A stretch of 64,000 nucleotides of DNA, from NCBI GenBank assembly GCA_963677925.2, contig CAXXYH010000003.1, forward strand, positions 64,001-128,000, given 5' to 3'. Position 1 is the stretch's first letter. Each line of letters begins with the position of its first letter. Made by a program: the position numbers. Source of the stretch: Spirochaetia bacterium (GTDB lineage Bacteria; Spirochaetota; Spirochaetia; UBA9216). Shown in pieces: positions 18,001 through 21,000 of this stretch.

Positions 18001-21000
18001 ACTCATCTATAAAGCCATCTACTAAAACATATTGTAATACAAGAATCAGTAAATATCAAACATTCATAAAGTTGGCCGTCACATCAACCTTAACAATTAC
18101 AGATATTGGTATAGTATTGGTGGCATGGATGATGTAAAGAGGGCCGCGGTGTGAAACACGGCGGTGCGCGGGCCTTTTTACGGCTGGAAGCCAGACGCTC
18201 CCCCCCAGCGGGGGGGACGGGAGGGGGGGGAGAATACAATAACTTACCTTTCGGCGCCGGTCCGGGAGGAAGCCGTAAAAAGCCGACCCGAAGATAGCAG
18301 CTATTCAATAGCCTTATTTACCGCTCATGAGGGTTACTATAAAAATGAGGTTCCAATGCCTATTACGTTATGATTCTATTGAATGGCTGTTTGATGAGGG
18401 CCGGAAAAGTTCCAGGTAACAACCCAGGCACACAACCGCGCAGGGACGCGCGGGACCTGCAGGTACAGCCCTGGACTAAATGGCATGCCCGGAAAAGGGA
18501 GCGCGGAAGCGCGGTTTCCGGGTGTTGAAACAAAGAGTGTCAGAGCAAAAACGGGAGCGTGAAAATGCAAAGCATTTTACGCGGGTTTTTGCAGCGGCTA
18601 CGGATTAAAAGCCCGCCGGTCTGCGTGAGCAGTCCGGGAGTATTGTCTTTTTTTCTTGTAATAAGGAATTTATCACGGGCGGAGCCGGTGATAAATATTG
18701 GTATTACTAAACAACTATCTGAACAATATTCGGCTAACACCATAGCTTTTAAAATAATATTATTTACTATACGCTCATACTGTATCATAATATGCATATA
18801 ATTTAATTCGTTATTAAGAGGTGAATGTAGATGGCAAAAATACAGTGTCCTTATTGTCGAAAACCCATCGATGAAAATATAGAATATTGTTCTTTTTGTG
18901 GTAAATCTTTAGATGTAGATACAATCAAACTCAGTAAAGAGAAGCAGAAGAAAAGAAATAAACGGATTTGGATATTTGTTGCTATTTCTATTGCTTTTTT
19001 TACGATTGTCATGTTCATTCCATCGGATGGGTCGTCATCAAGTAGTAGTACAGCACAAACTAAAGAAGTTGTCACAAATAGTTCTTTAGATTCCTCTGTA
19101 TCTCAAGTAAAAGTGTGGATGAGAAGTAATTTAAAAGATCCAGATTCATTGGAATATTTAGAATGGTCAGCTGTACAAAAGACAAACACCGGAGATTATA
19201 GAGTTCGTGTTAAATATAGAGCAAAGAATTCTTTCAATGCAGTGGTTATTGAAAACAAGTTATTCACGTTGGATTCTAATGGTGTTGTTATAGATGTGGT
19301 GGATTATCATTAAATATAAATTATTCTTTGTCAGCAAATATGATAGCATTTAGCTTACGGAATTGGTAGAAATAGGCAAGAATTAAGAACATTACAAGGC
19401 AATCATATTTGACTAATTCCTTATATAGTAGTAATATAGAGAAATAGATAGTAATCTACGGAATTGAGCGGTTTAACGACGATTTGAGTAGCGAAACCGG
19501 CCGAGTCTTCGAGGCTTGGCGCAGTTCTGGAACGTAGCGCAATCAGCGCGGAGTGTCTTTAGCCAGAACTGTGACAAAGGTTTTGACTACTCCAAATCTC
19601 TTGTTATATGTCATTCTAAATTTCTTACAATATCTTCAACATCCTTTCTCTTAGATGCTACAATACAATTGTATTTATTATCATATGATAATTTCCCATT
19701 AATAATCATAGAATTTAATGGTTTTTCTGTAAAAAAGTAATCACAATAAGGCAAAGCAAATGAGGCATGTATAAAATCCATTGTATCATTCTTATGATGC
19801 GGTTTATTTTTATCCCATCTTACAGCTGCAAATAAACCGGAAGGAATATCAATAGATGGAAATTCATCTTTAATTTTTCCTAATCTAATCAAATTATAAA
19901 TAGCATAAATAACATTACTTTCATTCCCAAAACTCTCTAAATATTCTTTTTCATCATTTGTAAAATAATAAAATAAATCTTTCATTGCTTCTTCTATTAT
20001 ATTCCTATGGGATTCAAGCCCTCCAGCGAGTTCTGCCAAATATAATTTTTTAAATGTATTATGCTCTGATATATGCTCAATTTTCTTTTTATTCAAATAT
20101 TCAGTATTATCAAAATGTTTAAAAACATCATTTCCCATATATTCATCAATTTCTAAGAATTTCATGCCCCACAAACGATCAATAAATTGTCTATTAATAT
20201 ATTTAGTATCTTCAATTTTCTCAAATTTATAAGGTGGAATTAAAGTACCAAAAATAAAAGGTAATTTTGTCCAAACAAGTTCTTCATTTTTATATAAATT
20301 AATTGGTAATGATTTCCCGAAATACGTCATCACCTCTAAGGTTATCCTTTCATAAAGACTAATTGAAGTTATTCCTTCAGAAAGTAAATCAATTAGTTTG
20401 ATTGTTTCAATCCTTGTATTTTTGTCTGATTGCTTTATAACTTCTAAATATGTTACATCACTGATTGGGAAAATATATTTCCCAGAATCATGAAGTTGTA
20501 AGATTTTTTTAAGAAATACATTATCAGATGATATTTTTTTCAAATCTCTTAAAATAATCCAATAATTAACATCGAGATATATCTTTACTTTATCTTTTAC
20601 TTTTTCTTCATATAGAGCAATTTTCTTCTTTTTTACATAAGCATTGTAATCATCATTAATTTGAAATTCTTCACTTTTCATAATGCTAATCACCTTATAA
20701 TCAATTAAGATTATTTAATCTTTATTATTTATGTACATATAACGCCCGCATCAGCTGCAATTTTGCCCCGAAGGGTTGGCGTAGTTTTTGAAATGAGCGA
20801 AGTGACTTCAAAAACTATGACAAAAAAATTGTCAGTTGCATGCGATTGTTATGCATCTCCTTTTTCTAAATTGAATTACTAATCTGTAATATTTATCTTC
20901 ATTTACTTCCATTATAATCTCGACTCTATAAGACTTAATGTATCTTGAATTAAATTATCTAACTCTGAAACTGTTATTGTATTTGGGTTCATTCCAAGTG

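What a model noticed while it worked through the whole genome (the two positions that open the first line are those of the whole stretch)
18083..18705. A ~560-nt structured RNA without a family, at the end of a mobile island inside the integron
A G+C-rich stretch without a credible ORF (core C3:82135-82694, + strand) is a member of a conserved structured-RNA class that matches no Rfam family. Homologues occur in two spirochaete families, with strong covariation in the 5' 158-nt domain. In three genomes the RNA directly follows the only D5-type primase-helicase gene. In this family every copy lies next to, and convergent with, an A-type cassette array.
Evidence so far: The stretch has only short ORFs that look spurious. 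Rfam gave 0 matches at E <= 1 and none on the RNA in six homologous loci. Copies in G010 and G005 (two) are 71-72% identical. RNAalifold gave 137 pairs, 17 compensatory, with many G-U pairs. CM R1 found G044, G071 and G116 and G287 (3 copies), G257 (2 copies) and G273 (weak, E 0.008). On 12 sequences, 95.8% of cells pair; 17 of 46 pairs and 60 cells have double changes; 0 of 500 shuffles reach this; slid controls give at most 7 pairs. The D5_N context is shown in calls 97, 106 and 108. The nearness to attC is shown in calls 24, 37 and 138. The genome has no RT.
(Added by a program. Inside this text positions count along the whole contig: contig position 64,001 is position 1 of the stretch shown here. 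"Call 12" and the like, gene names such as g00115 and contig names such as C1 are that model's own, and its searches are not shown. The text may have been shortened before it was handed on; [...] marks where a part breaks off. The agent that wrote the report below was given it as the finding of a first reader that could run no searches.)

Follow-up and report, generated by a model that had tools for sequence, protein, structure and literature searches.

The report
New large structured RNA on spirochaete prophages
A roughly 570-base non-coding stretch at the end of a mobile island folds into many conserved helices and belongs to an undescribed class of large phage-borne RNAs, with a self-complementary patch suggesting that copies of the RNA bind one another.

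Summary
Window 18127-18696 (+) has 52-53% G+C against about 30% in its flanks, no credible ORF and no Rfam match. It is single-copy here.

Homologues occur in 3 of 11 genomes of its own family and in 5-6 of 38 genomes of a second spirochaete family, plus one metagenome contig.

At least ten helices are kept by compensatory changes. This includes the central part, tested on an alignment not fitted to any model (263 of 264 cells paired). G.U pairs outnumber A.C 75 to 7, so the + strand is the one that folds.

In the second family and in one copy of the window's own family, the element is the last feature of a prophage, after a D5-type helicase gene. In this window it ends an integrase-bearing defence island inserted in an attC site of a cassette array.

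New here: an 8-10 nt junction segment is a perfect palindrome in 13 of 13 copies, with six different sequences. In OLE and GOLLD RNAs this signature marks symmetric RNA-RNA contacts.

Best reading: a new class of large phage- or island-borne RNA that self-associates. Its function is unknown and its expression is untested. A folded single-stranded DNA role is not excluded.

The parts
18090..18117 (+). Promoter-like pair of hexamers (TTAACA, 16 nt, TAGTAT) about 10 nt before the conserved sequence begins
   Evidence: Consensus scan, 9 of 12 matches. It is a pattern match only: the region gave 11 such sites against 3.5 expected. The second hexamer aligns with CAGTAT and GAGTAT in two homologues.
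18127..18696 (+). The structured element itself (about 570 nt), from the conserved GATGATGTAAAG linker to the terminal hairpin
   Evidence: Limits of conservation against G010, G005 (two copies) and L114. Composition. Coordinates of the pieces.
18141..18169 (+). P1 hairpin
   Evidence: Helix 1 of the 5' domain: 9 of 11 pairs show double changes.
18171..18284 (+). P2 long stem (UUUUUACGGC / GCCGUAAAAA) enclosing a three-way junction
   Evidence: Helix 2: 12 of 14 pairs show double changes and 95.6% of cells pair. The inner helices 3-6 are nearly invariant in sequence.
18199..18230 (+). Invariant core: a C7/G7 hairpin followed by A-CGGG-A-G8. The G-runs form a mirror repeat beside their complementary C-run.
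   Evidence: It is invariant in both families, and the C-run and first G-run change length together (7/7, 8/8, 6/6, 5/5). The same module occurs in at least 120 metagenome contigs.
18252..18259 (+). Junction palindrome CGGCGCCG, the candidate site of symmetric RNA-RNA pairing
   Evidence: A perfect 8-10 nt palindrome sits at this position in 13 of 13 copies, with six different sequences. It is more often unpaired than the domain average in 11 of 12 folded copies.
18288..18404 (+). P7 long stem with a variable insert
   Evidence: The base of the stem (7 pairs) is kept in 11 of 11 sequences of both families, and 3 pairs show double changes.
18436..18453 (+). P8 hairpin with a conserved AGGGAC loop
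   Evidence: 5 of 6 pairs show double changes between the families. The GGA of the loop is kept in 11 of 11 sequences.
18489..18521 (+). P10: a 7-bp stem, an asymmetric purine-rich internal loop, and a 4-bp stem with a tetraloop
   Evidence: All 11 pairs are kept in 11 of 11 sequences, and 4 pairs show double changes.
18545..18592 (+). P11 long hairpin (GCAAAAAC ... GUUUUUGC)
   Evidence: RNAalifold on 5 sequences of the window's own family.
18616..18637 (+). P13 hairpin CCGGUCUGC-GUGA-GCAGUCCGG
   Evidence: Conserved in 5 of 5 own-family sequences, with the closing pair switching A-U to C-G. A look-alike hairpin (P0) lies 5' of the element in other copies.
18668..18696 (+). P14 terminal hairpin. 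No clear run of T follows it.
   Evidence: The inner stem is conserved and the outer stem varies with partial compensation. The terminator scan found nothing in 17700-19000.
220..17864 (.). Body of the island that the element closes: an HTH_17 gene, an AEP-TOTE primase-helicase, a 1517-aa AAA protein, a type I restriction-modification system with Fic and ORF6N-like genes, a metallophosphoesterase and a 189-aa unknown. The tyrosine integrase lies just before the window.
   Evidence: Pfam scans. The integrase is at L043:15703-16857.
18831..19313 (+). Zinc-ribbon membrane ORF (160 aa) between the element and the island's inferred right end
   Evidence: Pfam DUF7575 and Zn_Ribbon_1 matches lie near or below the cut-offs. 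No relative of this ORF was seen beside the other copies.
19474..19607 (+). First complete attC-type repeat of the resumed cassette array. Its first 12 nt, TAACGACGATTT, also stand at the island's left junction.
   Evidence: Repeat families, the shared 12-mer and the sequences themselves. The role as att core is inferred.

Best explanation
This is a gene for a large, highly structured non-coding RNA of a class not yet described. It is about 570 nt here and up to about 800 nt in the second family.

The RNA is carried by a temperate phage of marine-type spirochaetes and by islands derived from or related to that phage. It is read from the + strand, the strand of the phage's D5-type helicase gene.

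It folds into at least ten helices:
- a 5' domain with a three-way junction built around an invariant C-run/G-run core;
- a long P7 arm;
- the P8 hairpin with a GGA loop;
- the P10 stem with a purine-rich internal loop;
- 3' hairpins.

I propose that the RNA acts in trans as an RNA-only or RNA-rich assembly. A junction strand that is always self-complementary pairs with the same strand of a second copy, giving symmetric dimers or larger homo-oligomers, as solved for OLE, ROOL and GOLLD.

Shown: the conservation, the helices, the folding strand, the genomic setting and the covarying palindrome.

Inferred: transcription, self-association, and any benefit to the phage or island. Because the element persists in defence islands that lack the helicase, I favour a role in lysogeny or phage-phage conflict over a role in replication.
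For: Structure
- 5' domain: 95.5% of cells pair, 23 of 46 pairs show double changes, 0 of 500 shuffles reach this, and slid controls give at most 10 pairs.
- Central part, on an unfitted MAFFT alignment of 11 sequences from both families: 263 of 264 cells pair, 12 of 24 pairs show double changes, and slid controls give at most 3 pairs and 41% paired.
- 3' part, within the window's own family: 12 of 41 pairs show double changes.

Strand
- 75 G.U cells against 7 A.C cells.
- Fold z-score -5.8 on the + strand against -3.7 on the - strand.

Not coding
- Frequent 1- and 2-nt indels.
- No 3-base periodicity, and the antisense 'ORFs' of the second family are low-complexity and do not align.

Self-association
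- The junction segment is a perfect palindrome in 13 of 13 copies with six sequences: CGGCGCCG, CAGCGCTG, GCAGCTGC, GCAGCGCTGC, GCAGGCCTGC and ACAGGCCTGT/CAGGCCTG.
- The changes that preserve it are a central CG/GC swap, an A-U to G-C change, and a 2-nt central deletion.
- The three copies within G531 carry three different palindromes.
- Passages of PMC12286853 use this same pattern (GGCC to GAUC or AGCU; GC to CG) as evidence for intermolecular kissing in OLE and GOLLD, because adjacent bases of one chain cannot pair with each other.

Setting
- The element is the last feature after D5 in 5 loci.
- Those elements carry portal, HK97-type capsid, head completion and terminase genes.

Independence from the helicase
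- Intact copies occur in G000 and G010, which have no D5_N gene.
Against: - No transcript has been seen. No RNA run holds the stretch, so this could not be tested.
- No canonical intrinsic terminator ends the element.
- In two D5-linked copies tested, the only terminator-like site at the 5' border points the other way.
- The promoter in G000 is a weak consensus match in a region with many such matches.
- Most double changes in the central part amount to one split between the two families, so independent events are fewer than the cell counts suggest.
- The 5'-domain counts come from an alignment fitted to the model.
- In the predicted fold, the palindrome's 3' half can also pair with the invariant CGGG (helix 5).
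- GC-rich elements of this length hold one to eight other palindromes of 8 nt or more each.
- The invariant core recurs in plasmids and insertion sequences, where a DNA-level role is as likely as an RNA role.
- The distribution is narrow, so the alignment is shallow (12-14 sequences).
Confidence: 0.55

Rival explanations
1. The structure is that of single-stranded DNA, not RNA. On this reading the element is a folded origin, priming site or packaging signal of the phage-like element, used by or together with the D5-type helicase encoded just upstream.
For: - The element follows the D5 gene in the same orientation in 5 of 11 located copies, at 0.5-3.8 kb.
- It sits at the very end of the element.
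- Its invariant C-run/G-run core also occurs as inverted repeats flanking repL in 2.7-kb Bacteroides Mob/RepL plasmids, beside Rep_1 genes, and at IS3, IS110 and ISL3 ends.
- Several hairpins close with GCA or GAA triloops, which I recall as very stable in DNA.
- No clear promoter-terminator pair is conserved.
- From memory: origins of primase-helicase replicons often lie just downstream of the gene (P4, SaPI, pRN1).
Against: - Structurally intact copies persist in genomes with no D5_N gene at all: G000 and G010. They also persist in loci where D5 is replaced by restriction or TOTE genes.
- The A-rich module between D5 and the element looks more like an origin, and it is lost in G000 while the folded core is kept.
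- 570-800 nt with ten or more covarying helices is far larger than the single-strand origins I recall (about 70-300 nt).
- Invariant tandem G.U pairs (GGGG/CCUU) and UNCG- or GNRA-type loops fit RNA better.
- No iterons were found in or beside the element.
Confidence: 0.17
2. It is a transcribed RNA whose job is to bind and hold a host protein. It would act as a sponge, for instance for CsrA, through its many conserved unpaired GGA motifs, rather than forming an RNA-only assembly.
For: - GGA is conserved in unpaired positions in both families: the P8 loop in 11 of 11 sequences, the P10 internal loop, the junction strands of the 5' domain, and P11.
- In 4 of the 6 full-length copies of the second family the P8 hairpin reads ACAGGGAUGU (the other 2 lack one G). 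As I recall it, this fits the CsrA SELEX consensus RUACARGGAUGU.
- All five carrier genomes tested encode CsrA.
Against: - Only one GGA sits in a hairpin loop. CsrB-type sponges, as I recall them, carry many.
- About a dozen GGA triplets are expected by composition alone in a G-rich 570-nt stretch (my arithmetic).
- CsrA is found in most bacteria, so its presence says little.
- From memory, spirochaete and Bacillus CsrA is countered by the protein FliW, not by RNAs.
- This reading does not explain the covarying palindrome.
Confidence: 0.1
3. It is a cis-acting part of an mRNA: a long leader, a 3' untranslated region, or a riboswitch-like regulator of a neighbouring gene.
For: - In G000 a zinc-ribbon ORF starts 135 nt after the element on the same strand.
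- In G437 a 351-aa ORF follows on the same strand.
- The element lies downstream of D5 on the same strand in 5 loci.
Against: - No gene family is shared immediately downstream or upstream across the loci. The only families shared by three or more loci are D5 and the phage structural proteins.
- In 7 of 11 loci the next gene downstream is on the other strand.
- Its size far exceeds known riboswitches.
- No Rfam family matched, so no known riboswitch matched.
Confidence: 0.04
4. It is not a functional element: either a G+C-rich remnant (a decayed gene or foreign DNA) whose apparent folds come from composition, or a short protein-coding gene.
For: - G+C-rich DNA folds well by chance.
- Short ORFs of up to 85 aa overlap it.
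- Antisense ORFs of 114-188 aa overlap the copies of the second family.
Against: - Dinucleotide-preserving shuffles fold much worse (z -5.8).
- Helices are kept through compensatory changes between families that share little primary sequence in those stems.
- There is no 3-base periodicity, and the antisense ORFs are low-complexity with shifting ends.
- 1- and 2-nt indels are frequent.
Confidence: 0.02

Closest known systems
ROOL RNA (large ornate RNA of prophages)
   Same: - Similar size, about 600 nt.
- Encoded on prophages and phages.
- Many helices, no known protein partner, function unknown.
- Solved as a homo-oligomer held by kissing loops (PMC12286853, abstract and passages read).
   Different: - No match to any Rfam model at E<=10.
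- No tRNA genes within the 12 flanking loci or the window, whereas ROOL is 'often near tRNA islands'.
- Found here only in two spirochaete families.
- Assembly of this RNA is inferred, not seen.
GOLLD RNA
   Same: - A large phage- or prophage-borne RNA of unknown function.
- A palindromic loop (L21a) covaries between GC and CG, which was read as a symmetric intermolecular contact (passage read). The junction palindrome here shows the same kind of change.
   Different: - No Rfam match.
- Shorter than GOLLD (more than 800 nt).
- No neighbouring tRNA genes.
- The palindrome here lies in a junction strand of a three-way junction, not in a hairpin loop.
OLE RNA
   Same: - About 600 nt and ornate.
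- It dimerises, and its L9.3 palindrome switches among GGCC, GAUC and AGCU (passage read).
   Different: - OLE is a chromosomal gene of Bacillota with dedicated protein partners (listing and abstract of PMC12054373).
- This element is on mobile DNA in spirochaetes, and no partner gene is shared across the loci.
- No Rfam match.
phi29 packaging RNA (pRNA)
   Same: A phage-encoded RNA, placed at a genome end, that multimerises by intermolecular base pairs which covary between phages. This description is recalled; the paper is cited in the reference list seen.
   Different: - pRNA is about 174 nt and pairs two different loops.
- No Rfam match here.
- The phages here have an ordinary large terminase, Terminase_6N.
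- The RNA also persists in islands without head genes.
Structured replication elements: ColE1 RNA II, single-strand origins of rolling-circle plasmids, and the stem-loop origin after the pRN1 primase-helicase gene (all recalled)
   Same: - Lies next to a replication gene.
- About 550 nt, as for RNA II.
- G-rich and C-rich tracts.
- Strand-specific folding.
   Different: - Kept intact where no D5 gene exists.
- No iterons.
- Much larger and more intricate than single-strand origins.
Integron attC sites
   Same: A strand-specific folded element lying in a cassette array.
   Different: - It does not belong to the array's repeat family. The 30 repeat hits in the window start at 19516 and none lies in 18083-18705.
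- It is about four times longer than an attC site.
- It also occurs in genomes of the second family, where no such repeats flank it.

Membership tests
Any Rfam family (ROOL, GOLLD, OLE, HEARO, group I and II introns, RNase P, tmRNA, 6S, phage pRNA, riboswitches and others) | Match to the family's covariance model | tested here: not met
   cmscan of window 17000-20000 at E<=10 gave 3 weak matches, none inside 18083-18705. Homologue L114 also had no match at E<=0.1.
Large ornate phage RNAs (the ROOL/GOLLD kind) | Encoded on phages or prophages | tested here: met
   Portal, HK97-type capsid, head completion or adaptor, Gp80-like protein, D5 helicase and Terminase_6N lie on the same strand upstream in G437 and G457. 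Part of the same module is present in G005.
Large ornate phage RNAs (the ROOL/GOLLD kind) | Extensive secondary structure supported by covariation, several hundred nucleotides long | tested here: met
   Length about 570 nt to about 800 nt.
Large ornate phage RNAs (the ROOL/GOLLD kind) | Frequent position near tRNA islands | tested here: not met
   ARAGORN found 0 tRNA genes in the window and in 12 flanking loci.
Large ornate phage RNAs (the ROOL/GOLLD kind) | Homo-oligomeric assembly through intermolecular contacts | not testable with these tools
   Only indirect evidence: a covarying palindrome in 13 of 13 copies, which is mostly unpaired in predicted ensembles.
Expressed non-coding RNA (any) | A transcript of defined length from the folding strand | not testable with these tools
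   No RNA run holds the stretch.
Group II intron or retron | Associated reverse transcriptase; domain V or msr/msd features | tested here: not met
   No RVT_1 match in G000 and no Rfam intron match.
Replication origin of a D5/SF3-helicase replicon | Occurs together with the helicase gene; iterons and an A+T-rich unwinding stretch | tested here: inconclusive
   The element is next to D5 in 5 of 11 located copies. It is also present and intact in G000 and G010, which lack D5_N. No iterons were found in G000. An A-rich conserved module lies upstream in D5-linked copies only.
Integron attC site | Member of the array's repeat family, 60-150 nt, at cassette boundaries | tested here: not met
   Repeat hits start at 19516 and none falls in the element.
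CsrB/RsmZ-type protein sponge | Many GGA motifs presented in hairpin loops | tested here: inconclusive
   One hairpin loop (P8) carries a conserved GGA. The other conserved GGA motifs lie in internal loops and junctions. CsrA is present in 5 of 5 carriers.

The most novel reading that the evidence does not exclude
The RNA builds a symmetric RNA-only assembly, a dimer or a closed cage as in ROOL and GOLLD. Partner choice would be set by the junction palindrome, so that co-resident copies with different palindromes (three in G531) stay apart.

Its invariant core, a C-run hairpin followed by the mirror repeat GnA-CGGG-AGn, would be a triple-helix or switch module. Very different mobile elements (plasmids, insertion sequences, phages) would share this module as a common structural or host-factor-binding unit.
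Probability: 0.2. Interest if true: 0.85.

Novelty: new member of a known kind. Interest (0 to 1): 0.62.

Why it matters
Only a handful of bacterial RNAs longer than 500 nt with intricate conserved folds are known. The function of the phage-borne ones (ROOL, GOLLD) is still open even now that their cage structures are solved.

A further class is useful for four reasons:
- It comes from a different phylum.
- It has a clear genomic address: the end of a prophage, after the helicase gene.
- It survives inside defence islands.
- It carries a palindrome that changes while staying a palindrome.

That gives a new and tractable case for asking what such RNAs do. It also yields a directly testable prediction: break and restore the palindrome, then measure the oligomeric state.

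The widespread C-run/G-run module may separately mark an unrecognised structural unit of mobile DNA.

Tried and rejected
- Expression: the look-up of sequencing runs listed no RNA holder. Nothing was laid and no conclusion was drawn.
- BLAST over 401 genomes of the phylum gave only 24-37 nt matches apart from the element itself. These were not taken as homologues.
Handle numbers evidently differ between sessions.
- Model R2 on 151 genomes of the phylum found only G000. These were searched with strict filters and the genomes are a sample, so the result is 'not found in those searched'.
- Phage records (INPHARED, distant mode): no match.
- IMG/VR: 0 hits for the long 5' pattern and 0 for the second family's P10 motif.
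- Protein-coding reading: rejected.
- pRNA-like role in a phage without terminase: dropped after Terminase_6N genes were found 3-8 kb beyond the portal genes (PF03354 gave none).
- RNase P-like or tmRNA-like reading of the CAGGCUGUCGCC + hairpin contexts in metagenomes: considered by eye and dropped, since the universal GAGGAAAGUCC does not follow and Rfam gave nothing.
- K-turn reading of P10: checked by eye against the recalled consensus. Neither family fits it fully.
- Palindromes in the variable P9 region: present in 9 of 11 copies but not at alignable positions, so not used as evidence.
- L068, L058 and L122 from metagenomes match the models only weakly. L068 lies antisense inside an ORF with methyltransferase domains. 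None was counted as a member.
- Literature: searches by sequence motif, on large phage RNAs and on spirochaete RNA motifs turned up no description of this class. The TOTE search was not followed up.
- Supplementary files of papers were closed. Those of PMC12286853 list intermolecular motifs that I could not see.
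Full report
WHAT IS THERE

Window 18127-18696 (+) stands out by composition. It has 52-53% G+C, against 31% and 28% in the 300-nt windows on either side.

It is not coding:
- The longest overlapping ORFs are 85, 80, 72 and 69 aa.
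- The homologues differ by many 1- and 2-nt indels.
- Substitutions show no 3-base periodicity.
- The antisense ORFs of 114-188 aa that overlap copies in the second family are low-complexity, with shifting ends.

Rfam 15 at E<=10 gave three weak matches in 17000-20000, all outside the element.

The + strand folds at -239.7 kcal/mol (z -5.8; 0 of 20 shuffles as good). The - strand gives z -3.7. The element is single-copy in its genome.

RELATIVES

BLAST found copies in 3 of 11 genomes of the family, counting G000. G010 is 71% identical and G005 has two copies, the one on C3 72% identical. The order holds no further genomes.

A covariance model of the 5' domain (R1, 152 positions) gave the following:
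- In a 151-genome sample of the class it found a second family, f89.
- Within the 38 genomes of f89 it found G437, G457, G531 (3 copies), G532 (2 copies), a partial copy in G494 (E 0.066) and a doubtful hit in G542 (E 0.43).

Other searches found little:
- BLAST over 401 genomes of the phylum found nothing real.
- A broader model, R2, run over 151 genomes of the phylum found only G000. These are samples, so the result is 'not found in those searched'.
- One metagenome contig, L114, holds a full copy (E 2.5e-27).
- The genome-contig scan returned 3 records whose titles name spirochaete metagenome-assembled genomes.
- Phage records and IMG/VR gave no copy.

STRUCTURE

5' domain, 14 sequences aligned to the model:
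- 95.5% of cells pair.
- 23 of 46 pairs and 75 cells show changes on both sides.
- 0 of 500 shuffles reach any of the five measures.
- Slid controls give at most 10 pairs.
- The covariation sits in the two outer helices: 9 of 11 pairs in one and 12 of 14 in the other.
- The inner three-way junction is almost invariant in sequence.

That alignment is fitted to the model, so I also tested the central part on a plain MAFFT alignment of 11 sequences from both families:
- RNAalifold predicted 24 pairs (base of P7, P8, P10).
- 263 of 264 cells pair.
- 12 pairs show double changes.
- Slid controls give at most 3 pairs and 41% pairing.
- Most of these double changes are one split between the two families. 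They are about a dozen compensated events, not 54 independent ones.

The 3' hairpins are supported within the window's own family: 12 of 41 pairs show double changes in 5 sequences.

The two families are co-linear through P2 with its junction, P7, P8, P10 and P11. The second family has extra 3' sequence and reaches about 800 nt.

G.U cells outnumber A.C cells 75 to 7. The folding strand is therefore the + strand, which is the strand of the D5 gene.

THE PALINDROME

Between the 3' strands of P6 and P3, every copy carries a perfect 8-10 nt palindrome. That is 13 of 13 copies, counting the partial ones. There are six different sequences:
- CGGCGCCG (this window, 18252-18259)
- CAGCGCTG
- GCAGCTGC
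- GCAGCGCTGC
- GCAGGCCTGC
- ACAGGCCTGT / CAGGCCTG

The differences keep the segment self-complementary. They are a central CG/GC swap, an A-U to G-C change, and loss of the central two bases.

Other observations:
- The three copies in G531 carry three different palindromes, whereas the two in G005 share one.
- In predicted ensembles the segment is less paired than the domain average in 11 of 12 copies.
- Passages of PMC12286853 state that this pattern supports intermolecular pairing in OLE L9.3 and GOLLD L21a. The stated reason is that adjacent bases of one chain cannot pair with each other.

I take this as the best clue to mechanism. It is indirect, for two reasons. The 3' half can also pair with the invariant CGGG in the predicted fold. 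And these G+C-rich elements each hold one to eight other palindromes.

SETTING

In the second family and in one G005 copy, the element follows a D5_N/SF3-helicase gene on the same strand. The gaps are:
- about 0.5 kb in G005:C3
- about 0.57 kb in G531:C132
- about 1.0 kb in G457
- about 1.8 kb in G437
- about 3.8 kb in G531:C125

Small cargo genes such as NUDIX lie in the longer gaps.

That D5 gene is the only one in G005, G437 and G457. G531 has four, two of them beside copies of the element. G000 and G010 have none.

Upstream on the same strand lie a shared module of unknown 480-570 aa proteins, a Gp80-like protein and a head completion or adaptor protein. In G437 and G457 there are also an HK97-type capsid, a portal and a Terminase_6N gene. 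The carrier is therefore an ordinary prophage, and the element is its last feature, next to host genes.

In this window the element closes a different island of about 22 kb. Its contents, in order:
- a tyrosine integrase (L043:15703-16857, just before the window)
- an HD protein
- HTH_17
- an AEP-TOTE primase-helicase
- a 1517-aa AAA protein
- a type I restriction system with Fic
- a phosphoesterase
- a 189-aa unknown
- the element itself
- a zinc-ribbon ORF

attC-type repeats lie on both sides: 9 hits in the 18 kb before the window, and 30 in the window from 19516 on.

The left junction keeps only the first 12-14 nt of such a repeat. The same 12-mer, TAACGACGATTT, begins the first complete repeat on the right. 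I infer insertion into an attC site.

All four copies of the window's own family have these repeats 0.8-3.2 kb past their 3' end, in the same relative orientation. Loci of the second family do not.

Defence genes are frequent neighbours: type I restriction and Abi_2, BREX and GmrSD, TOTE with Schlafen/AlbA_2, and AbiE. No tRNA gene is near any copy.

ENDS

In the copies linked to D5, conservation runs further 5' than in G000. It covers a hairpin, P0, that resembles P13. Before P0 lies an A-rich module of the form AAAAAACAC-hairpin-AAAT..AAAAAATAT.

In the two D5-linked copies scanned, that module reads as an intrinsic terminator pointing against the element. It may shield the phage genes from convergent transcription.

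G000 lacks both the module and P0. In their place it has a promoter-like TTAACA-16-TAGTAT. No canonical terminator closes the element. Transcription signals therefore do not settle whether the folded molecule is RNA or DNA.

THE INVARIANT CORE IS SHARED WIDELY

The core is the motif TCCCCC-N3-10-GGGGGACGGGAGRGGGG.

Within the five spirochaete genomes tested it occurs only inside copies of the element.

Elsewhere it occurs in:
- 5 viral contigs;
- in variant form, as inverted repeats around repL in 2.7-kb Bacteroides Mob/RepL plasmids.

Of the 80 metagenome loci fetched, only L114 matches the whole 5' domain well.

The other contexts are mixed:
- ends of IS3, IS110 and ISL3 elements
- a Rep_1 plasmid
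- downstream of housekeeping genes
- in four contigs, apparently in frame inside coding sequence

Many instances lie at contig ends, as repeats do.

The G-runs form a mirror repeat (GnA-CGGG-AGn) beside the complementary C-run. The C-run and the first G-run change length together. That arrangement could give alternative hairpins or a purine-motif triple helix. This is speculation.

READING

I commit to a transcribed, trans-acting large RNA of a new class that self-associates through the palindrome (confidence 0.55).

The main rival is a folded single-stranded DNA origin or priming or packaging site (0.17). The points for it are the position after D5 and the sharing of the core with plasmids. 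The points against it are the intact copies in genomes without D5, the loss of the A-rich module with retention of the fold in G000, the element's size, and the RNA-like loops and tandem G.U pairs.

The other rivals are a protein-sponge role (0.10), a cis-regulatory role (0.04) and a non-functional remnant (0.02). Each is given with its evidence in the rival explanations.

COMPARISON AND NOVELTY

The element works most like ROOL, GOLLD and OLE. It is a member of none of them:
- There is no Rfam match.
- There is no tRNA neighbourhood.
- The fold and the host range differ.

Five literature searches found no description of it.

I rate it a new member of a known kind: a new family within the known kind of large, ornate, mobile-element RNAs of unknown function.

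Interest is 0.62. The structure and the palindrome are striking and testable. Against that, the distribution is narrow, expression is unproven and function is open.

WHAT I READ AND WHAT I RECALLED

For PMC12286853 I read the abstract listing and the passages returned by the find query. All other papers were seen only as search listings.

The following come from memory, not from any call:
- the CsrA consensus sequence
- the FliW remark
- pRNA size and loop pairing
- ColE1 RNA II
- the pRN1, P4 and SaPI origins
- the stability of GNA triloops in DNA

Noticed in passing
window 18199-18230; loci L050-L129, L170-L175: The invariant core of the 5' domain (a C-run hairpin followed by GnA-CGGG-AGn) recurs in at least 120 metagenome contigs, in 5 viral contigs and, as inverted repeats, in Bacteroides 2.7-kb Mob/RepL plasmids. 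It lies next to IS3, IS110 and ISL3 ends, often at contig ends, and in four contigs seemingly in frame inside genes. In five spirochaete genomes it occurs only inside the RNA. What this roughly 35-nt module is remains unknown.
   Followed up: partly
L043:15540-15700 and window 19474-19485: The 22-kb island appears to be inserted in an attC site. The left junction keeps only the first 12-14 nt of an attC-type repeat, and the same 12-mer, TAACGACGATTT, opens the first intact repeat on the right. This suggests a tyrosine integrase that targets attC sites.
   Followed up: partly
L034:9780-9870, L038:10040-10090, and the same place in L033, L036, L037, L039, L041 and L114: An A-rich module (AAAAAACAC-hairpin-AAAT..AAAAAATAT) is conserved between the two families. 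It lies between the D5 gene and the element. In the two copies scanned (L034, L038) it reads as an intrinsic terminator pointing against the element. It is absent from G000 and from G005:C22. It could be an insulator, an origin or a promoter region.
   Followed up: partly
window 18616-18637; L034:9873-9925; L038:9990-10030: Hairpin P13 (GGUCUGC-GNNA-GCAGUCC) at the 3' end of the window's own-family copies has a look-alike, P0, at the 5' end of the same RNAs. In the second family only the 5' copy is present. These could be paired end hairpins, processing sites or a protein-binding pair.
   Followed up: no
window 18455-18489 and the matching stretch between P8 and P10 in the other copies: The variable P9 region holds palindromes of 6-12 nt in 9 of 11 copies (for example ACCTGCAGGT, TGCCGGCA, TCCCGATCGGGA, AGGGCCCT). 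Their positions cannot be aligned. This may be a second self-pairing site, or chance in G+C-rich sequence.
   Followed up: partly
window 1233-8339; L040:10697-14942: An AEP-TOTE primase-helicase gene lies in the G000 island, next to a 1517-aa AAA protein. Another lies 2.4 kb from the G531:C99 copy, next to a Schlafen/AlbA_2 gene. Counting these, a primase- or helicase-type gene (D5 or AEP-TOTE) is near 7 of the 11 located copies.
   Followed up: no
window 19516-62688: There is a long cassette array: 30 attC-type repeat hits, with nearly all genes on the - strand. Many cassettes carry defence or toxin-antitoxin domains (TIR, GmrSD, Mrr, Abi_C, AAA_13, AAA_21, BrnT, PemK/MazE). A 300-nt stretch is duplicated at 99% identity (52603-52902 and 62800-63099), inside two Peptidase_C39-like cassettes.
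   Followed up: no
L044:12109-12765 and L045:8558-9214: In both prophages, an ORF with response-regulator receiver and LuxR-type HTH domains sits just after the portal gene, ahead of the capsid gene, where a prohead protease is usual.
   Followed up: no
L091:1578-1613: One metagenome instance of the core module gives a sub-threshold match to the Rfam whalefall-1 motif (23.5 bits against a gathering score of 37; E 0.063).
   Followed up: no
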